From Acinetobacter phage vB_AbaSt_W16, in the sequence record PP174317.1: 64,000 bases of DNA. One strand, 5' to 3'. The stretch's first letter is position 1, and the number at the start of each line of letters is the position of its first letter. Of this stretch, positions 56,548-62,138 are shown one piece after another. The translations under genes and the position numbers were made by a program. Below the pieces are notes generated by a model. It was given only the letters and a program-made list of their open reading frames with translations. It was not told the origin of the DNA and did no database searches.

Positions 56548-57173
56548 AGTTTTAAAATAGTACCATATAAACGACGAACATATGTACGATAATCAACAAG
56601 AGTCTCTTCATCGACATAATATTGCGGAACATTTAACCAGTGTTCAGCACCCATATTATCAACAATATAAGGCACATTGAGTTGGTAATCATATTTGATA
56701 TTATGAACATATCGACGACGTTGGCCGTCTGTATAGTCTACAAGGATTTCAGCGCCAAGTAAAAATTTACAATCTCTAAAATATGGTGTTAGTTCAGGTC
56801 GTTCATATCTTTCATGTAAAACTACTTTTGCATTTACACCTTTTAAAACTAACATTTGACGACCATCATGTGGGTGTTCATCTACATAATAAGATTCGAG
56901 CCAACGATGTTCATTTGTAAATTCATCACCAAAAATTAAATCCAACCAAGTTGTACCTGGGTTAAGTTTAACATTTGCACGAACGTTTACCGTAATAATA
57001 TCAGTAAGATTATATTTATAATCAAGTTCAAAAATTTGGCCGTCTTTATAATTATCTAAACGCATCCAACCCAAACCTACAATATTAAGTAGTGCAATAT
57101 GAGTAAACTTTTCTGGGTTATAAACACCTGCATCCAAAATCAATTCACGTAAAGTATTCATATTAATCCTCAT
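56544..57173 (-). CDS. Hypothetical protein, the last gene of the ATP-grasp operon.
   Basis: 209-aa ORF. Confidence 0.5.
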   Translation of the reverse strand: MRINMNTLRELILDAGVYNPEKFTHIALLNIVGLGWMRLDNYKDGQIFELDYKYNLTDIITVNVRANVKLNPGTTWLDLIFGDEFTNEHRWLESYYVDEHPHDGRQMLVLKGVNAKVVLHERYERPELTPYFRDCKFLLGAEILVDYTDGQRRRYVHNIKYDYQLNVPYIVDNMGAEHWLNVPQYYVDEETLVDYRTYVRRLYGTILKL

Positions 57174-57284
57174 TTAAATGCTTTTTAAACTTTTCTTTTC
57201 TGTCATATTTTGACTTGTCTTTTACAACCTGCATCTTAAATGCAGGTGTTCTAACAGCTTTTGCAACTGGATTACGTTTATTTC

Positions 57285-57524
57285 TCATTTCTTCTCCTTG
57301 TATGATTGATACAATCGATATGGCGTCATGAGACCAATAAGTAAATAAATTAGTAGATATACTAATGAAGAAAATAGCAATCCTATAACTGGCATTTGAC
57401 CAATAAAATCGGTTTTGTTTGGACCGAATTTATGATCATGATGACCTTCATTAACGTATCGATTCCAACTAAATGTACCTTTCAAATTTGTCTTAACAAT
57501 TTTAATTAACTTTTTCATTTCCAT
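57285..57524 (-). CDS. Small protein with a C-terminal transmembrane helix (tail-anchored-like). Its start overlaps the end of the ATP-grasp gene.
   Basis: 79 aa with a hydrophobic C-terminus (VIGLLFSSLVYLLIYLLIGLM). It overlaps the upstream gene by 10 nt. Confidence 0.45.
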   Translation of the reverse strand: MEMKKLIKIVKTNLKGTFSWNRYVNEGHHDHKFGPNKTDFIGQMPVIGLLFSSLVYLLIYLLIGLMTPYRLYQSYKEKK

Positions 57525-58783
57525 AACTCCAAATATTTGGTTTCTAAATCTTCTGGCACAAAGAAATGGCTTGCAAAAAATGCGTCCATACCTGTGACAA
57601 GATTTCGATCTTCACGAATAGACATACCACATGCTTTGTCACCAATAATCCATGAGCCAATGATCGGATAATATCCATCGTGCGGTTGAATTTCATGCCA
57701 TTGTTGGTACATATAGCCCCAATGATCATATTCAGGTACTTTGTGAGAACCCGGAGCCAAATGACTAAGCTCTTCGCCAGAACAAAAATGCGAACGATAG
57801 ATGTTTGAACCTTCGCGGCCATGAATTGCTTTCTTAGCATATTGACCCGATTTTGGATGATGATTCCCATCAAAACTCGCCAATAAATTAGGGTGATTAG
57901 GGAACATTTCCCATAACTTAATAAGCATTGCTTTGTTTGAAAGCAGCATTTTCCATGCGGGTTCCATCCAACGAGTGTTAGTACAGTCAAGAATGTCAGA
58001 ACCAAATTTCTCTTCAGTCATCCATTCCCAAGGATAAAGTTTAAAACAATTTTTGATCTCTTGGTCTTGAAGATCGATAAACGATTTAGTTTCAGGGCCT
58101 GTGCCAATACGTTCTTTCAAAAGACCAATATCTTGCATTTGCAATTCTTTAACAGATAAACCAGCACGAAGTGCAGAATCCATCAAATAAACTAAATTAC
58201 CAAAGTCTTCATGACGGAATCCACCGCTTGATGCAAAATGAACTAATTCGCCTGGTTTAAATCGTTCCTGCCAAACTTCTTGAAGAGTTTCATCAATAAG
58301 ATTATATTGAATACGCAGATCATCTGGATAATCACGACCGTCTGGTAATTTTTGCATACTTTCAATATAATTCCATTGTGCTACAGAACATTCAAGAATT
58401 GAAACTGGAGTGTCGCCATTATACTCAAACATTTTTAATGAGTCATCAGAGCCAAAAGCAAGATCGAAACGTCCATATAATGATTTATCACCACGATTCC
58501 AAGATTGTTCAATTAAAGGAATCGAATTTTCATCCAAATTGAAGTACTCAGGATAATCACCAGATTTGATCATTTGTTCTACCATTGCATAAGACATATC
58601 GTGTAAGTCTTGTGATGCAGCTTGAATACGGTCAATTTCACTTTCTGACATTCCATATACAACGCCTTCTTGCCAATATGGTGCAGCATCAGGTCCAGAA
58701 GGGGCATTCCAATAATTGAAGCCAATTCCCTCTAAAAGTTCAATGTGATTAGGACGGATTTCGAAATTGCTATGGCGTTTCAT
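57515..58783 (-). CDS. Glutathionylspermidine-synthetase-like ATP-grasp amidoligase. It is a standalone synthetase domain of the YgiC/YjfC family with no amidase domain.
   Basis: Collinear with the E. coli YgiC/Gsp synthetase domain. Matching segments include LQDQEIKNCFKLYPWEWM, EPAWKMLLSNKAMLIKLWEMFPNHPNLL, KKAIHGREGSN, IIGSWIIGDKACGMSIRED. Confidence 0.85.
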   Translation of the reverse strand: MKRHSNFEIRPNHIELLEGIGFNYWNAPSGPDAAPYWQEGVVYGMSESEIDRIQAASQDLHDMSYAMVEQMIKSGDYPEYFNLDENSIPLIEQSWNRGDKSLYGRFDLAFGSDDSLKMFEYNGDTPVSILECSVAQWNYIESMQKLPDGRDYPDDLRIQYNLIDETLQEVWQERFKPGELVHFASSGGFRHEDFGNLVYLMDSALRAGLSVKELQMQDIGLLKERIGTGPETKSFIDLQDQEIKNCFKLYPWEWMTEEKFGSDILDCTNTRWMEPAWKMLLSNKAMLIKLWEMFPNHPNLLASFDGNHHPKSGQYAKKAIHGREGSNIYRSHFCSGEELSHLAPGSHKVPEYDHWGYMYQQWHEIQPHDGYYPIIGSWIIGDKACGMSIREDRNLVTGMDAFFASHFFVPEDLETKYLELWK

Positions 58784-58845
58784 ACTTTACTCATTTTTTA
58801 AAGATTTCAGAAATTTTACACTAATAATAAAAACATGTAAACATT

Positions 58846-59130
58846 TTATCTAAATTTAGTGTATTCACATCGATGTTGTGGGATTTTCATATAACGATCG
58901 GCTAATGTTAAATTAACATATGTACCATCGGAATACCATGTAATAGAACTATCATTACCTGTATACGTGACAATCGAATCACCCGAAAGTGATAAACACT
59001 TAAGCGTAACTGTACCGGCAGGTGTATATTCTTGATTTGCTTTTGGGTGTTGCATTACAAAAATACTTAATGCAATAATAATTCCAATAATTAAACAGAA
59101 TATCATTTGACCATTATTTAATTTATTCAT
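58846..59130 (-). CDS. Small membrane-anchored or secreted protein with an N-terminal transmembrane segment and two Cys in the periplasmic part.
   Basis: 94 aa. A hydrophobic N-terminal segment (MIFCLIIGIIIALSIFVM) is followed by a soluble domain. Confidence 0.5.
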   Translation of the reverse strand: MNKLNNGQMIFCLIIGIIIALSIFVMQHPKANQEYTPAGTVTLKCLSLSGDSIVTYTGNDSSITWYSDGTYVNLTLADRYMKIPQHRCEYTKFR

Positions 59131-59135
59131 AAAAA

Positions 59136-59157
59136 CTCCAAAGGGCCGAAGCCCTTA
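59136..59157. terminator. Hairpin aaagggccgaagccctt between the lipoprotein gene and the 94-aa gene. It may be an attenuator.
   Basis: Inverted repeat, seen directly. Confidence 0.45.
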
Positions 59158-59161
59158 ATTA

Positions 59162-59683
59162 TTAACCACCTGAAGATACTGCACCACCGAAACCACCACG
59201 AGAAGTTGACGTACTACGAGACACTGCAGCGGCTTTAGTTGAAACCGCACGTGATTCGGTTGCTCGATATGAATTTAACGTGTTTCGAGCCGGCGGAACA
59301 TATGCACTTGATCCCATTGCTTGTTGACGAGATTTAAATGAATTATATGACCCATTAGACATCATATTGCCGAGCATCATGCCCATTGCGCCAGCCATCA
59401 TCATATCCATGCCACTAAATCCTGAATTTGATGCAGCTTGTGTTGCGGCGGCAGGATCAGTTTTATGCAATTCAAGTAATTTTACCCAATCTTCGTATGT
59501 GCCGGTATAACCTTTAGCTTTGGCCTCTTCATATGATTTGCTTAAAGTATCAGCGACTTGAACAAATGCACCTTCAGGAGTTTGCGCTACATTTGATGCA
59601 ACAGCAACAGAATCATCTTTGGCACAGCCTGCTAATACAAAGGCAGGTACCATCAACATTACAATAGATTTTTTCAGTTTCAT
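59162..59683 (-). CDS. Lipoprotein with a Met/Gly-rich hydrophobic segment and a Ser/Gly-rich C-terminus ending in GG. Its architecture resembles DUF1190 (YgiB/YjfM).
   Basis: Signal peptide plus lipobox (VLAGC), then MDMMMAGAMGMMLGNMM, then the C-terminus TSRGGFGGAVSSGG. From memory, E. coli YgiB has a similar arrangement (LAGC, FWMPLMAGYMMGRLMGGG, C-terminal TRGGFGE...SMGG). Confidence 0.7.
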   Translation of the reverse strand: MKLKKSIVMLMVPAFVLAGCAKDDSVAVASNVAQTPEGAFVQVADTLSKSYEEAKAKGYTGTYEDWVKLLELHKTDPAAATQAASNSGFSGMDMMMAGAMGMMLGNMMSNGSYNSFKSRQQAMGSSAYVPPARNTLNSYRATESRAVSTKAAAVSRSTSTSRGGFGGAVSSGG

Positions 59684-59690
59684 TTTTCAC

Positions 59691-60032
59691 CTAGATATCA
59701 ATAGAAGAGAATTGTGCAATAATAGTCAAACCTACTGAAATGAAGATAAGACCGACCCATGCACCAAGGTCTAAATTTTGATTAAGCATTATTTTTGCAA
59801 GAAATGCAGTAGCAACGGCACCAAGGCCTGACCACATAACATACAATATACCAGCTTGCATATATTTTAATGCGATAACACAAGCAATAAATGATCCAGT
59901 GTATAATATTGCACCAATTATAAGAGGTCCAATATTATTAAAACCGTCTGCCTTTGCCATATAAATGGTTGATATTACATCAGTGGCTATTGCTACCAAT
60001 AGCCACATTACACCTATTTGACTAGATGTCAT
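59691..60032 (-). CDS. Small multidrug resistance (SMR/EmrE-like) four-helix membrane transporter homologue.
   Basis: 113 aa aligning along its full length with EmrE: AxDVISTIYMAKADGF against AEVIGTTLMKFSEGF, YVMWSGLGAV against YAIWSGVGIV, and NQNLDLGAWVGLIFISVGLTII against GQRLDLPAIIGMMLICAGVLII. The conserved TM1 Glu is replaced by Asp. Confidence 0.8.
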   Translation of the reverse strand: MTSSQIGVMWLLVAIATDVISTIYMAKADGFNNIGPLIIGAILYTGSFIACVIALKYMQAGILYVMWSGLGAVATAFLAKIMLNQNLDLGAWVGLIFISVGLTIIAQFSSIDI

Positions 60033-60385
60033 TTGAATTCACCCAAAACATTATATGCCTTTTTAAGCCATTCATCACGAGTCAAATAAGGGCCAATATC
60101 CGATGTAAATAACTTGATGACTTTCCATGTACGTTCAGTATAACGAGAGTATGACCAATCAGCAAATAATCCAATCCCTGATTCATCCATATCTGGTTTT
60201 TTAATACCAAAAATACGACGAATAGTTCGGGATTCAGATACATCACCCCACTCGTCAGTAGACCATCCAAATGTTTTGCCGATAACACATGTTTTATATT
60301 CACCCATACTAAATTCAGTATCTTGAGGTAATTGTTCAACAGCTTCAATAGCACGGATAAGGCCGTTAATTAAATTAACTTTCAT
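60029..60385 (-). CDS. Hypothetical cytoplasmic protein, the first gene of the SMR/lipoprotein operon.
   Basis: 118-aa ORF whose stop overlaps the SMR start (ATGA). Confidence 0.5.
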   Translation of the reverse strand: MKVNLINGLIRAIEAVEQLPQDTEFSMGEYKTCVIGKTFGWSTDEWGDVSESRTIRRIFGIKKPDMDESGIGLFADWSYSRYTERTWKVIKLFTSDIGPYLTRDEWLKKAYNVLGEFK

Positions 60386-60427
60386 TTTGATTTGCTCATG
60401 TTATTTGGTATGTTCATATAATAATAA

Positions 60428-60456
60428 AAAATCCAGGCTATGTACATAGCCTGGAC
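60428..60456. terminator. Strong rho-independent terminator downstream of rnlB (tccaggctatgtacatagcctgga with T-run on the minus strand).
   Basis: 10-bp perfect stem plus T6. Confidence 0.7.
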
Positions 60457-60469
60457 AAAAATATTTTAA

Positions 60470-61489
60470 TTATTCTACTTTATGCACAGCAAAATCTTGT
60501 TCAGTCCAATATTCACGCACATCAACTTGAACAATTTTCTGCAATTCGCCCTTAAGTTTAGATGGAGCTTCTGCTTGATTAATACTAATACCTTCACGTT
60601 CAGCTTCAGTAAGTAGATCGTGCATTGTCATACCTAAAAGTTTACCAAACATTTTTGGATTTAATTCACCAATATGTGAGGCGACATTTGAAATACGAGC
60701 TTTTGTTGAAAACTCTGATAACTTATTCAAAAGGTCTTTATCTGCTTCCGATAAAGGTACCGGAATTTTAGGTAATTTACCTTTACCCTTTTCTTTAAAT
60801 TTATCAGTTTTGTATTTGATGGCAACACGTGAACCGTTATTTAAAAACAATGGGTATACAGGTTTAATAACAAGACCTTCACCTACATTATCAGTTGGAG
60901 CTGGTTGTGCATGATAACCATACATATTGTCCCAAGTTAATGATGGTACAATTGTATTAAATTCAACAGGCAATTTAAGAAGTTGTTCCAAACTACCATG
61001 GGCAATTAAAGGCGCAATTTTTAAACCATGATGTTCACAAAATGCTTGCACACTACGGTCATCCCACCAACCATTTGAAATTCCTGCCGCCGGCGCATCT
61101 AAAAAGATATCGAAAACATAAAATGATTTTGGACCATAATCAACTTCTTTTTGAATATTACCACCAGCATATTCACCAAAGATTTGCATTGAATTCCAAC
61201 CGTCGCCATTATCAATAAGTAATTTTTGAACAGCTTTAAATACATCATCCAAATCTTTCATTACATCTTCATAACCAAAGAATTTTTCAGTTGGGCCGAT
61301 TGGCCCTGAACGTTTACAAGCTTGAATGTTGTCTTTAGTAATGATAATTGAGAAGTTTGTACCATGGATTTTTTCACGGGCCACAAATTCACATGCATTG
61401 CCACCATTTTGAGCAGCAACATCAAAACAGGCCTGGATGAATTTACCATTAGTATGATTTTCAAGGCTTGAATATTTTTTAAAAGTCAT
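60470..61489 (-). CDS. rnlB: RNA ligase 2.
   Basis: Collinear with T4 Rnl2 (334 aa). Matching segments include FKKYSSLENH, the active-site lysine motif VAREKIHGTNFS, VDYGPKSFYVFDI, NGSRVAIKYK and LSEADKDLL. Confidence 0.93.
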   Translation of the reverse strand: MTFKKYSSLENHTNGKFIQACFDVAAQNGGNACEFVAREKIHGTNFSIIITKDNIQACKRSGPIGPTEKFFGYEDVMKDLDDVFKAVQKLLIDNGDGWNSMQIFGEYAGGNIQKEVDYGPKSFYVFDIFLDAPAAGISNGWWDDRSVQAFCEHHGLKIAPLIAHGSLEQLLKLPVEFNTIVPSLTWDNMYGYHAQPAPTDNVGEGLVIKPVYPLFLNNGSRVAIKYKTDKFKEKGKGKLPKIPVPLSEADKDLLNKLSEFSTKARISNVASHIGELNPKMFGKLLGMTMHDLLTEAEREGISINQAEAPSKLKGELQKIVQVDVREYWTEQDFAVHKVE

Positions 61490-61525
61490 TTTATGTCTCC
61501 AAAATAATTTAGGGATAAGATTAAT

Positions 61526-61903
61526 TTAAATGTCGCTTTCTACAATACCAAAAATTACACTGGTATCCACATCTTCAAGTTTATGGATGATAATTCTAAG
61601 GCCTTTAACAATTCCGGTAATTTGGTTAAAATCACCATCTGATAAGGTTTTAAAGGCATCTTGACCACCATAATGTACAATGAAAGGGTCGTCTAATTGA
61701 ATATAATGAGTTTTTAATGGATTTTTTGCGTATCGTTTAATACTTTCCAAATCGTATGATAGATTCAGTTTTAATAAATCGTTATATTTTGGAAAGCGTT
61801 TAAGAGCTTTAATAATTAATGATCGATCTTTAGGGTCCGCCAGTTTAATGGCATCATTAAAAGACTTAATGAATGTATTATAAACATCTGGAGTGAGAAG
61901 CAT
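61526..61903 (-). CDS. Hypothetical protein, paralogue A of a duplicated small gene.
   Basis: Its N-terminus shares YNxxIKxFNDAI...FPKYxxLK with the ORF at 62114..62578. Confidence 0.5.
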   Translation of the reverse strand: MLLTPDVYNTFIKSFNDAIKLADPKDRSLIIKALKRFPKYNDLLKLNLSYDLESIKRYAKNPLKTHYIQLDDPFIVHYGGQDAFKTLSDGDFNQITGIVKGLRIIIHKLEDVDTSVIFGIVESDI

Positions 61904-61904
61904 T

Positions 61905-62138
61905 TTATTTTCCTTTACTTAAATTTGCCCGAACAAAACAGTCTTTTGCTTCTAATAACTTACGCAACCCCGTCTGTGTTTCTTCACATGCGGGCAAAGA
62001 TAAAACCATTTTCGCCGCAAGATCGCCTATACCTTTAGATACTTCTTGTAAGTGCGGTGGCAAATGGTCATATGCAAAATACTGTAAAATTGGATAAGAA
62101 TTTGCATAGAGTGTTAATTTCTCATTAGATTCAGACAT
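61905..62138 (-). CDS. Hypothetical small protein lying between the two paralogues.
   Basis: 77-aa ORF. Confidence 0.4.
   Translation of the reverse strand: MSESNEKLTLYANSYPILQYFAYDHLPPHLQEVSKGIGDLAAKMVLSLPACEETQTGLRKLLEAKDCFVRANLSKGK

What the first reader, a model, noticed from the sequence alone, without database searches (positions are those of the whole stretch)
59691..60032. Phage SMR (EmrE-like) homologue with Asp in place of the essential membrane-embedded Glu
The 113-aa protein aligns over all four helices with EmrE. At the position of the invariant TM1 glutamate (E14 in EmrE) it carries aspartate, in ATDVISTIYM. E14 is the proton and substrate coupling site, and the E14D change alters pKa and transport behaviour in EmrE. 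A phage-encoded SMR with this change suggests altered substrate or proton coupling, or a non-transport role such as a membrane scaffold for the adjacent lipoprotein/amidoligase module.
Basis: partly seen in the sequence, partly recalled or inferred. Interest (0 to 1): 0.55.

Follow-up and report, generated by a model that had tools for sequence, protein, structure and literature searches.

The report
Asp-type SMR transporter in polyamine-ligase module
The phage gene is a real EmrE-like small membrane transporter whose key membrane-buried glutamate is an aspartate, and this is a fixed trait of a small, undescribed subfamily in Acinetobacter and Moraxella and their phages and plasmids, usually sitting next to a YgiB-like lipoprotein and a YgiC-like peptide-polyamine ligase.

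Summary
ORF 59691-60032 (-), 113 aa, is ZZ1p0011 of Acinetobacter phage ZZ1, annotated 'QacE'. It passes the Pfam SMR model and aligns without gaps to EmrE residues 6-104, which puts Asp18 on Glu14. Asp18 is its only membrane-embedded charge, and the protein contains no Glu.

The Asp is neither phage-specific nor a one-off. It is present in all 58 informative related loci, in phages, a megaplasmid and Moraxellaceae chromosomes. Both Asp codons are used and no Glu codon occurs. The rest of the SMR machinery is kept: the Tyr switch, the binding-site Trp, the GxG fulcrum and the TM4 glycines. A set of residues around the site is changed together (G/A17 to S, P55 to Q, A59 to L, A61 to V). No named SMR subtype model reaches its cut-off.

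In 16 lineages, including every phage copy and the deepest branch, the gene is followed by a YgiB-like lipoprotein and a YgiC-like ligase.

Best reading: a working dual-topology SMR cation transporter of a new Asp-type subtype that serves a mobile polyamine-conjugation module. The substrate and transport direction are inferred, not shown.

Verdict: new variant of a known kind; interest about 0.6.

The parts
59691..60032 (-). Asp-type SMR transporter gene (113 aa; ZZ1p0011, annotated 'QacE')
   Evidence: Pfam PF00893 scores 51.3 bits. Gapless alignment to EmrE residues 6-104. AlphaFold2 predicts four helices, and Foldseek's top hits are EmrE and Gdx-Clo. All NCBIfam SMR subtype models score far below their cut-offs.
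59979..59981 (-). Codon GAT for Asp18, the position of EmrE Glu14 (the 'central glutamate')
   Evidence: Read directly from the sequence using the offset of 4. Asp is invariant in 38 of 38 full-length relatives and 58 of 58 informative loci. Codons are GAT 47 and GAC 7 in 54 distinct genes, with no Glu codon.
59162..59683 (-). YgiB-like (DUF1190-like) lipoprotein, 173 aa. It starts 7 nt after the SMR stop codon, and an AGGTGA Shine-Dalgarno-like sequence lies inside the SMR 3' end.
   Evidence: Lipobox LAGC, a Gly/Met-rich hydrophobic stretch, and a C-terminal SRGGFG...GG-stop are shared with E. coli YgiB (alignment A3) and YjfM. The same features occur in all 15 linked loci checked. Pfam DUF1190 reaches only 18.2 bits against a cut-off of 22.
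58846..59130 (-). 94-aa protein with an N-terminal membrane anchor (PHROG 20143). It is a phage-lineage insert between the lipoprotein and the ligase and is not part of the three-gene core.
   Evidence: It is absent from the bacterial and plasmid versions of the module, where the lipoprotein directly precedes the ligase.
57515..58783 (-). YgiC-like ATP-grasp acid-amine ligase (glutathionylspermidine-synthase family), 422 aa
   Evidence: Pfam GSP_synth scores 359 bits. It is 37% identical to E. coli YgiC, E 6e-76. RefSeq names YgiC 'peptide--spermidine ligase'.
60029..60385 (-). 118-aa ORF whose TGA overlaps the SMR ATG (ATGA), suggesting translational coupling. It is specific to this lineage (PHROG 21305).
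   Evidence: It is found only in ZZ1- and Lazarus-type phages.
60431..60456 (-). Terminator-like hairpin (11-bp stem plus T run) between rnlB and the 118-aa ORF, overlapping a promoter-like site. It may mark the 5' boundary of the transcription unit.
   Evidence: This is a consensus match only; the counts do not exceed those in shuffled sequence.
59141..59156 (-). Second terminator-like hairpin, just after the lipoprotein gene
   Evidence: consensus match only.
57163..57524 (-). Two small overlapping ORFs downstream of the ligase: a 79-aa protein with a C-terminal TM segment and a 41-aa basic DUF7230 protein
   Evidence: The 41-aa ORF is conserved next to the ligase in other Acinetobacter T4-like phages, including Ac42, which lacks the SMR.

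Best explanation
ZZ1p0011 is most likely a working SMR-family transporter that assembles, like EmrE, as an antiparallel homodimer. It belongs to a previously undescribed subtype in which the membrane-embedded carboxylate that binds proton and cationic substrate is Asp rather than Glu. In this subtype the surrounding pocket has been rebuilt around the shorter side chain: Ser at EmrE position 17, Gln at 55, and Leu and Val at 59 and 61, flanking the Tyr switch.

The subtype evolved as the first gene of a three-gene mobile module: SMR, then a YgiB-like lipoprotein, then a YgiC-like peptide-polyamine ATP-grasp ligase. Large Acinetobacter phages carry this module as a host-derived auxiliary cassette. 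The transporter most likely moves a small polycationic substrate of that pathway across the inner membrane. Candidates are a polyamine such as 1,3-diaminopropane or spermidine, or a polyamine conjugate.

Shown here: homology, fold, the Asp position and its fixation, the co-varying pocket residues, and the gene linkage. Inferred: homodimeric dual topology, transport activity, substrate class, and transport direction.
For: 1. Family membership and the Asp position are established.

2. Selection acts on Asp specifically.
- Asp is present in 58 of 58 loci and 82 distinct sequences, down to 48% identity.
- Both Asp codons are used, and Glu never appears although it is one mutation away.

3. The transport machinery is retained. 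These positions are at least 99% conserved in the clade and shared with 115 Glu-type representatives:
- A10, I11 and T18
- Y40, F44 and Y60 (the Tyr switch)
- W63
- G65-x-G67
- G90 and G97
The review PMC9574504 names these features as mechanistically essential.

4. The pocket is remodelled in a coordinated way. Positions 17, 22, 55, 56, 59, 61 and 74 carry clade-specific invariant residues.

5. There is one SMR gene per locus and the K+R bias is small (typically 2 versus 3), as in EmrE. This fits a dual-topology homodimer.

6. Linkage to the lipoprotein and ligase is seen in 16 lineages:
- T4-like phages
- 274-kb and 381-kb jumbo-phage contigs and other phage-like contigs
- megaplasmid pB18-1
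- the A. rudis chromosome and Moraxella and Acinetobacter MAGs
- bacterial-looking contigs
- the deepest-branching member, P0050
All 15 linked loci checked for the motif, plus the P0050 locus, have the YgiB hallmark motifs.

7. The neighbour is tied to polyamines and efflux.
- E. coli YgiC and YjfC are peptide-spermidine ligases (RefSeq names; Pederick 2023 as cited in PMC11762307).
- ygiBC sits in the tolC operon.
- yjfL-yjfM-yjfC has the same gene order: small membrane protein, DUF1190, ligase.

8. Asp occurs naturally at this position in MdtI-type (polyamine-subtype) subunits. P0122 and the C-terminal half of P0150 pass the MdtI cut-off, at 115.9 and 116.2 bits against 103.

9. The clade is confined to Moraxellaceae. 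Their major polyamine is 1,3-diaminopropane (Hamana & Matsuzaki 1992, cited in PMC8458285).
Against: - There is no functional data of any kind.
- 39 Moraxellaceae chromosomal copies stand alone, 35 of them at the cysI-DUF934 position. The transporter can therefore be kept without the ligase next to it.
- Phage Ac42 keeps the ligase without the SMR or lipoprotein. Aeromonas and Ralstonia phages have the ligase with other neighbours.
- The MdtI model scores no better than the Qac and EmrE models (48.6 versus 52-54 bits), so sequence alone does not point to polyamines.
- In EmrE, E14D lowers the pKa. From my own knowledge, it also impairs coupled transport at neutral pH, so activity of an Asp-type pump cannot be assumed.
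- The NJ tree that places linked copies basally has no support values and rests on about 110 columns.
Confidence: 0.5

Rival explanations
1. It is what the GenBank annotation says: a QacE/EmrE-type multidrug and quaternary-ammonium efflux pump, carried by the phage as a resistance moron. On this view Asp is a tolerated conservative substitution.
For: The best-scoring NCBIfam models are Qac and EmrE (54 and 52 bits). EmrE is the closest solved structure. The aromatic pocket residues Y40, F44, Y60 and W63 are kept. PHROG 1395 carries this name.
Against: - Every Qac and EmrE model is far below its curated cut-off (54 versus 188, 52 versus 162).
- In the profile search the clade is set apart from ordinary SMRs. 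Full-length members score 183, 124 and 94 bits, against 77 bits or less for Glu-type SMRs.
- The gene lies at a fixed chromosomal position in 35 of 39 unlinked loci, or in the ligase module. It is not in resistance cassettes.
- Strict Asp conservation with co-varying pocket residues argues for a specific adaptation rather than drift.
- Plasmid-borne Qac genes are only about 35-40% identical to it.
Confidence: 0.12
2. It is a working Asp-type SMR transporter for some other small cation or metabolite, unrelated to the ligase. The adjacency would reflect shared mobility or an ancestral accident rather than a shared pathway.
For: Most chromosomal copies are unlinked. Ac42 has the ligase alone. YgiC-like ligases in other phages have different neighbours.
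Against: - The same order and orientation (SMR, lipoprotein, ligase) persists while SMR identity falls to 48% and the flanking genes change completely. This holds across phages, a plasmid and chromosomes.
- Intergenic gaps are short, or the genes overlap.
- All phage copies are linked.
Confidence: 0.2
3. It has lost transport function and serves as a membrane scaffold or chaperone for the lipoprotein and ligase module.
For: The central Glu is replaced. The lipid-subtype SMRs show that the family can replace this residue (Asn; PMC9574504). The gene is tightly coupled to the lipoprotein gene.
Against: - The replacement is still a carboxylate and is invariant.
- The Tyr switch, Trp, GxG fulcrum and TM4 glycines, which matter for alternating access, are all conserved.
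- 39 loci keep the gene with no adjacent lipoprotein or ligase to scaffold.
Confidence: 0.08
4. It is a guanidinium exporter (Gdx/SugE type).
For: Gdx-Clo is the second-best structural match. Gdx is the most common SMR function (PMC9574504).
Against: - The SugE model scores 26.5 bits against a cut-off of 126.
- The Gdx-defining Trp16 position is Ser.
- No guanidine riboswitch, or any other Rfam cis-regulator, lies near ten bacterial and plasmid loci or near the window gene.
Confidence: 0.03

Closest known systems
EmrE / Qac subtype of the SMR family (PF00893)
   Same: Length of about 110 aa, four TM helices, and a gapless alignment at about 35% identity. A10, I11, T18, Y40, S43, F44, Y60, W63, G65xG67, G90 and G97 are conserved. 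It is a single gene with weak K/R bias, which fits an antiparallel homodimer.
   Different: The central carboxylate is Asp, not Glu. G17 becomes S, K22 becomes A, P55 becomes Q, A59 becomes L and A61 becomes V, all invariant in the clade. It fails every Qac and EmrE NCBIfam cut-off. Its genomic context is a YgiB/YgiC module or a fixed chromosomal site, not resistance cassettes.
MdtI/MdtJ polyamine-exporting SMR heterodimer
   Same: It belongs to the SMR family, and the proposed substrate class is polyamines. Natural MdtI-type subunits with Asp at this same position exist (P0122, and the C-terminal half of P0150).
   Different: MdtIJ genes are always found as a pair (PMC9574504), whereas this is a single gene. 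The MdtI model scores 48.6 against 103 and the MdtJ model 23 against 122. In the fused MdtJ-I-like proteins the partner half keeps Glu, whereas here both protomers would carry Asp.
E. coli tolC-ygiB-ygiC and yjfL-yjfM-yjfC operons
   Same: A DUF1190 lipoprotein followed by a YgiC/YjfC peptide-spermidine ligase, preceded by a gene for an envelope transport or membrane protein.
   Different: The upstream partner in E. coli is the outer-membrane channel TolC or the DUF350 protein YjfL, neither of which is an SMR. YjfL shows no homology to the SMR (hhalign probability 0.9%). The physiological role of the E. coli modules is itself unknown (PMC11762307).
ArnE/ArnF lipid-flippase SMR subtype
   Same: This is the only described subtype in which the central Glu is naturally replaced (by Asn). 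It is also embedded in a biosynthetic operon (PMC9574504).
   Different: Here the replacement keeps the negative charge. There are no arn genes nearby, and it is a single gene rather than a pair.
EmrE E14D laboratory mutant
   Same: The same residue change at the same position.
   Different: E14D is a single substitution in a Glu-adapted pocket and has a lowered pKa (10.1101/141937). The natural clade carries additional fixed changes around the site that may retune it. No measurement exists for the natural proteins.

Membership tests
SMR family (Pfam PF00893, DMT superfamily) | Profile HMM score above the curated gathering cut-off over the full domain | tested here: met
   51.3 bits against 23.7, covering profile positions 4-93 of 93.
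SMR family (Pfam PF00893, DMT superfamily) | Protein of about 100-120 aa with four TM helices and the EmrE/Gdx fold | tested here: met
   The AlphaFold2 model (pLDDT 92.1) has helices at 3-27, 34-54, 60-83 and 89-108. Foldseek matches EmrE at TM 0.73-0.81 and Gdx-Clo at TM 0.71-0.80.
Proton-coupled SMRs (Gdx, Qac, polyamine subtypes) | Central membrane-embedded glutamate in TM1 (EmrE E14, Gdx-Clo E13) | tested here: not met
   Asp18 occupies this position, and it is Asp in 58 of 58 related loci. Among the 150 best 50%-identity representatives the position is 126 Glu, 11 Asp and 3 Gly. The protein contains no Glu.
Proton-coupled SMRs (Gdx, Qac, polyamine subtypes) | Tyrosine switch (Y60), binding-site Trp (W63), Ser43, the TM3 GxG fulcrum, and the TM4 G90/G97 glycines | tested here: met
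   Y64, W67, S47, G69-L-G71, G94 and G101 are invariant or nearly invariant in the clade.
Proton-coupled SMRs (Gdx, Qac, polyamine subtypes) | Antiparallel dimer; for single-gene members, dual topology with weak positive-inside bias | tested here: inconclusive
   There is one SMR gene per locus, and K+R counts on the two sides differ by 0-2, as in EmrE. Oligomeric state and topology cannot be measured with these tools.
Proton-coupled SMRs (Gdx, Qac, polyamine subtypes) | H+-coupled transport of a cationic substrate | not testable with these tools
   Requires reconstitution or resistance assays.
Qac subtype (EmrE, QacE, etc.) | NCBIfam subtype models above their curated cut-offs | tested here: not met
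   SMR_qac_int scores 54.1 against 188, EmrE family 52.0 against 162, and QacE 37.9 against 185. The bacterial relatives behave the same way.
Gdx (SugE) subtype | SugE model above cut-off, Trp at Gdx-Clo position 16, and frequent control by a guanidine riboswitch | tested here: not met
   SugE scores 26.5 against 126. The position is Ser in 99% of the clade. No Rfam riboswitch was found in ten bacterial and plasmid loci.
MdtIJ polyamine subtype | Paired mdtI/mdtJ genes, with the MdtI or MdtJ model above cut-off | tested here: not met
   It is a single gene. MdtI scores 48.6 against 103 and MdtJ 23.1 against 122.
ArnE/ArnF lipid subtype | Central Asn, paired genes, and an arn operon context | tested here: not met
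   The residue is Asp, the gene is single, and the neighbours are a YgiB-like and a YgiC-like gene.
YgiB/YjfM (DUF1190), for the neighbouring lipoprotein | Pfam DUF1190 above cut-off | tested here: inconclusive
   18.2 bits against 22 (E 0.0032). Relatives score lower still.
YgiB/YjfM (DUF1190), for the neighbouring lipoprotein | Lipobox Cys, Gly/Met-rich hydrophobic segment, and C-terminal SRGG(F/Y)G...GG-stop | tested here: met
   Alignment with E. coli YgiB shows these columns invariant. YjfM has the same C-terminal ending. All 15 linked loci show the features.
YgiC/YjfC peptide-spermidine ligase (GSP_synth ATP-grasp), for the neighbouring ligase | Full-length GSP_synth domain and close similarity to YgiC, without the GspS amidase domain | tested here: met
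   PF03738 scores 359 bits over residues 17-407. It is 37% identical to YgiC, E 6e-76. The bifunctional GspS model matches only the C-terminal part and is far below its cut-off (90.6 against 882). Enzymatic activity was not tested.

The most novel reading that the evidence does not exclude
The Asp-type proteins are a fifth functional SMR subtype. They would be the dedicated inner-membrane component of the still-unexplained YgiB/YgiC (DUF1190 plus peptide-polyamine ligase) pathway. The shorter Asp carboxylates and the rebuilt pocket would be tuned to a short di- or polyamine headgroup. The invariant C-terminal Gly-Gly of the lipoprotein would be the carboxylate that the ligase amidates with the polyamine. 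Phages would then carry a complete cassette that decorates an envelope lipoprotein with polyamine, or re-routes the host polyamine pool, during infection.
Probability: 0.15. Interest if true: 0.8.

Novelty: new variant of a known kind. Interest (0 to 1): 0.6.

Why it matters
1. The central glutamate is treated as the defining mechanistic residue of proton-coupled SMR transporters. The 2022 family review lists four subtypes, with Glu in three and Asn in the lipid subtype (PMC9574504). A naturally fixed Asp with co-evolved pocket residues is a ready-made experiment on how side-chain length and pKa set coupling and selectivity in the smallest known transporters.

2. The physiological role of YgiB/YgiC and YjfM/YjfC is an acknowledged open question (PMC11762307). 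A conserved partnership with a small-cation transporter narrows the hypotheses to a pathway that moves a polycationic molecule across the inner membrane. It also provides a compact three-gene system to test.

3. The gene is propagated in databases as 'QacE quaternary ammonium resistance protein' in dozens of therapeutic-candidate A. baumannii phages. The evidence here indicates that this label is unsupported, which matters for phage-therapy safety screens that flag resistance genes.

Tried and rejected
- Chance or misalignment of the Asp: rejected. The alignment is gapless and there is no Glu anywhere in the protein.
- One-off mutation or sequencing error: rejected. Asp is present in 58 of 58 loci with two codons.
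- Phage-specific innovation: rejected. The same residue is found in 43 Moraxellaceae genomes.
- Gdx assignment: rejected.
- Homology between the SMR and E. coli YjfL (DUF350), which sits in the equivalent operon position: none.
- Riboswitch or other Rfam element near the gene, in bacteria or in the window: none above threshold. Only weak sub-threshold hits appeared in the window.
- Promoter and terminator scan: two hairpins were noted, but site counts do not exceed those in shuffled sequence.
- Literature searches found nothing. Topics searched were SMR plus glutathionylspermidine plus phage, the phage 'QacE', and an Asp-type SMR.
- The ZZ1 and KARL-1 genome papers do not mention the gene.
- The IMG/VR scan added only four loci, because the search patterns were clade-specific.
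- P0054, a divergent Asp-bearing relative, lies only on contigs shorter than 1 kb, so its context is unknown.
- A monomer AlphaFold2 model cannot show the dimer pocket.
Full report
**What the window is.** Region 57000-62000 is 99.9% identical to Acinetobacter phage ZZ1 (HQ698922 / NC_018087), a T4-like phage of the Twarogvirinae. The ORF in the finding is ZZ1p0011, annotated 'quaternary ammonium compound-resistance protein QacE'. The existence of an SMR-like gene here is therefore already recorded. The Asp substitution and what follows from it are not mentioned in any paper I could search. The ZZ1 genome paper does not discuss the gene.

**Checking the observation.**
- The ORF runs from 60032 to 59691 on the minus strand and encodes 113 aa.
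- It passes the Pfam SMR model at 51.3 bits against a cut-off of 23.7.
- It aligns without a gap to EmrE residues 6-104, E 2.8e-11.
- The constant offset of four residues places Asp18 (GAT, 59979-59981) on EmrE Glu14.
- The AlphaFold2 model built on 38 relatives is confident (pLDDT 92.1) and has four helices, with Asp18 in mid-TM1.
- The closest solved folds are EmrE and then Gdx-Clo.
- The protein has no glutamate. Asp18 is its only charged residue inside a predicted helix core.

**Is the Asp an accident?** No.
- The word-indexed protein search returned 47 relatives down to about 50% identity. All 38 full-length ones carry Asp.
- Scans of phage, plasmid and genome collections, plus contig look-ups, gave 58 informative loci. 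All have Asp.
- Across 54 distinct gene sequences the codon is GAT 47 times and GAC 7 times. It is never GAA or GAG, although Glu is one transversion away.
- A full HMMER scan of 1.84 billion representatives shows the clade is small and isolated. Its full-length representatives score 183, 124 and 94 bits, and ordinary SMRs begin at about 77 bits.
- Among the best 150 representatives the position is Glu in 126, Asp in 11 and Gly in 3.

**What else distinguishes the clade.** I compared 82 distinct clade sequences with 115 Glu-type representatives column by column.

Shared and at least 99% conserved (EmrE numbering):
- A10, I11 and T18
- Y40 and F44
- Y60, the 'tyrosine switch'
- W63
- G65-x-G67, the TM3 fulcrum
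- G90 and G97

The SMR review describes these as the core of the alternating-access mechanism (PMC9574504).

Clade-specific and invariant or nearly so:
- E14 to D
- G/A17 to S. This is the position of Trp16 in Gdx-Clo, which hydrogen-bonds the central Glu there.
- K22 to A
- P55 to Q
- A59 to L and A61 to V, on either side of the Tyr switch
- position 74 to L

This looks like a pocket rebuilt around a shorter carboxylate. It does not look like a decaying transporter.

No curated subtype model comes near its cut-off:

| Model | Score (bits) | Cut-off (bits) |
|---|---|---|
| Qac | 54 | 188 |
| EmrE family | 52 | 162 |
| MdtI | 48.6 | 103 |
| SugE | 26.5 | 126 |
| MdtJ | 23 | 122 |

The bacterial relatives behave the same way. 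There is a single SMR gene per locus and the K+R bias between the two membrane faces is 0-2, as in EmrE. This is consistent with a dual-topology homodimer, but that is an inference.

**Where the family lives.**
- The genome scan found the gene in 43 species genomes. All but one 394-bp fragment are Acinetobacter or Moraxella.
- In 35 of 39 stand-alone chromosomal loci it sits at the same place, downstream of cysI and a DUF934 gene. There it is a vertically inherited core gene.
- The A. baumannii version is seen on at least 1000 contigs under generic names such as 'SMR family transporter', 'DMT family transporter' and 'quaternary ammonium transporter'.
- The Asp is therefore not a phage invention.

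**The neighbours.** In ZZ1 the SMR gene overlaps the stop of an upstream 118-aa ORF (ATGA). Seven nucleotides after its own stop comes a 173-aa lipoprotein gene. Next are a 94-aa membrane-anchored protein and then a 422-aa GSP_synth-family ATP-grasp ligase.

The ligase is 37% identical to E. coli YgiC, E 6e-76.

The lipoprotein only brushes the Pfam DUF1190 model (18.2 against 22 bits). It nevertheless shares three features with E. coli YgiB and YjfM:
- the lipobox cysteine
- a Gly/Met-rich hydrophobic stretch
- an invariant C-terminal SRGG(F/Y)G...GG-stop

The order SMR, YgiB-like lipoprotein, YgiC-like ligase recurs in:
- all Acinetobacter T4-like phages that have the SMR
- a 274-kb jumbo-phage contig
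- a 381-kb IMG/VR contig
- two other phage-like contigs
- a metagenomic T4-like contig
- the 275-kb A. indicus megaplasmid pB18-1
- the A. rudis chromosome
- Acinetobacter and Moraxella MAGs
- bacterial-looking contigs
- the most divergent clade member, P0050, at 48% identity

All 15 linked loci checked for the motif, and the P0050 locus read separately, contain the YgiB hallmark motifs. In a neighbour-joining tree the linked copies are basal and the stand-alone chromosomal copies form one derived clade. The tree has no support values, so it is suggestive only. The simplest history is that the Asp-type SMR arose within the three-gene module. The module became mobile on phages and plasmids, and one Acinetobacter lineage later fixed a solo copy at the cysI locus.

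**What is known about the partners.**
- E. coli ygiB-ygiC lie directly downstream of tolC.
- The paralogous yjfL-yjfM-yjfC has the same order: small inner-membrane protein, DUF1190, ligase.
- YjfL is not homologous to SMRs.
- RefSeq now names YgiC and YjfC 'peptide--spermidine ligase'.
- A 2025 TolC review summarises that they lack glutathionylspermidine synthetase activity but have peptide-spermidine ligase activity. It states that their physiological substrate and the role of YgiB remain unknown (PMC11762307).
- One SMR subtype, MdtIJ, exports polyamines (PMC9574504).
- Two of the few Asp-bearing proteins outside the clade pass the MdtI equivalog cut-off: P0122 at 115.9 bits and the C-terminal half of the fused tandem SMR P0150 at 116.2 bits, against 103. 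In the fusion proteins the other half keeps Glu.
- Acinetobacter's major polyamine is 1,3-diaminopropane (Hamana & Matsuzaki 1992, as cited in PMC8458285).

**Best explanation (confidence about 0.5).** This is a functional, homodimeric SMR cation transporter of a distinct Asp-type subtype. It acts as the membrane-transport component of a mobile YgiB/YgiC-type polyamine-conjugation module, which large Acinetobacter phages carry as a host-derived auxiliary cassette.
- Shown: homology, fold, position and fixation of the Asp, the co-varying pocket, and the conserved linkage.
- Inferred: oligomeric state, activity, substrate class (a polyamine or polyamine conjugate), and direction.

**Evidence that weakens it.**
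- Solo chromosomal copies exist.
- Phage Ac42 has the ligase but no SMR or lipoprotein.
- YgiC-like ligases in Aeromonas and Ralstonia phages have other neighbours.
- The MdtI model scores no better than the Qac models.
- EmrE E14D has a lowered pKa.

**Rivals.**
- A generic Qac pump, as annotated (0.12). This is disfavoured by the failed subtype cut-offs, the context, and the specific conservation pattern.
- An Asp-type transporter functionally unrelated to the ligase (0.2).
- A non-transport scaffold (0.08). This is disfavoured by the retained transport machinery and by the solo copies.
- A guanidinium exporter (0.03). This is disfavoured by the scores, by Ser at the Trp16 position, and by the absence of any riboswitch.

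**Novelty and verdict.** The gene and its SMR homology are already annotated. The following were not found in the literature available to me, including the review that defines four SMR subtypes:
- the fixed central Asp
- the co-evolved pocket
- the clade's restriction to Moraxellaceae and their mobile elements
- its conserved partnership with YgiB/YgiC

I rate it a new variant of a known kind, with interest 0.6. It gives SMR mechanists a natural Glu-to-Asp system, it gives the unresolved YgiBC question a testable transporter partner, and it indicates that the 'QacE resistance' label on many therapeutic-candidate A. baumannii phages is unsupported.

Noticed in passing
window 59162-59683 (-); also L028:6428-6973, L064:2245-2916 (E. 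coli ygiB), L070:4388-5026 (E. coli yjfM): Every YgiB/YjfM-like lipoprotein examined ends in SRGG(F/Y)G...Gly-Gly-stop. An invariant C-terminal Gly-Gly next to a peptide-spermidine ligase suggests the lipoprotein's own C-terminus could be the ligase substrate. This is speculation and was not tested.
   Followed up: partly
window 57163-57288 (-): A 41-aa, very basic ORF matches Pfam DUF7230 (49 bits). It stays next to the ligase in other Acinetobacter T4-like phages, including Ac42, which lacks the SMR and lipoprotein.
   Followed up: partly
L061 (Acinetobacter phage Ac42, NC_014660 1-8056): Ac42 keeps the YgiC-like ligase (65% identity). Between rnlB and the ligase it has three unrelated ORFs with no Pfam hits in place of the SMR and the YgiB-like lipoprotein.
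   Followed up: partly
P0122, P0150, P0173 (representative proteins): MdtI-type SMR subunits with Asp at the central position exist. P0150 and P0173 are single-chain tandem SMRs whose N-terminal half has Glu and whose C-terminal MdtI-like half has Asp. Three other representatives have Gly at this position.
   Followed up: partly
window 60431-60456 (-) and 59141-59156 (-): Two terminator-like hairpins bracket the unit formed by the 118-aa ORF, the SMR and the lipoprotein. The first overlaps a promoter-like site, and a weak sub-threshold Rfam hit (L20 leader, 25 bits against 58.7) falls on it.
   Followed up: no
L003 (A. baumannii AP022077.1, 8001-8411): In this strain the chromosomal Asp-type SMR gene is disrupted at its 3' end by an IS element (rve transposase). 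The result is a 136-aa fusion ORF.
   Followed up: no
L008 (CAKLQH020000002.1) and PLSDB hits H129-H131: There are database labelling problems. The 254-kb 'Acinetobacter phage MD-2021a' contigs carry ordinary chromosomal genes such as cysI, gcd, rtcB and lysP. Several 3.6-4.1 Mb A. baumannii records sit in the plasmid collection. The 90% protein cluster holding the A. baumannii SMR also mixes in the neighbouring DUF934 protein.
   Followed up: no
L062 (Aeromonas phage 31, NC_007022 49356-56531): The distantly related YgiC-like ligase of Aeromonas T4-like phages also lies just downstream of an annotated lipoprotein (307 aa) and a 'putative integral membrane protein' (202 aa). This suggests a recurring trio of membrane protein, lipoprotein and ligase with non-homologous membrane partners. 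The ZZ1 lipoprotein gives a weak tblastn hit there (E 7e-4).
   Followed up: no
L071/L072 (contigs carrying P0050): The deepest-branching Asp-type member lacks the otherwise invariant Tyr40-equivalent (Cys instead) and has Lys instead of Gln at the P55 position. Its YgiB-like partner is twice as long, at 363 aa.
   Followed up: no
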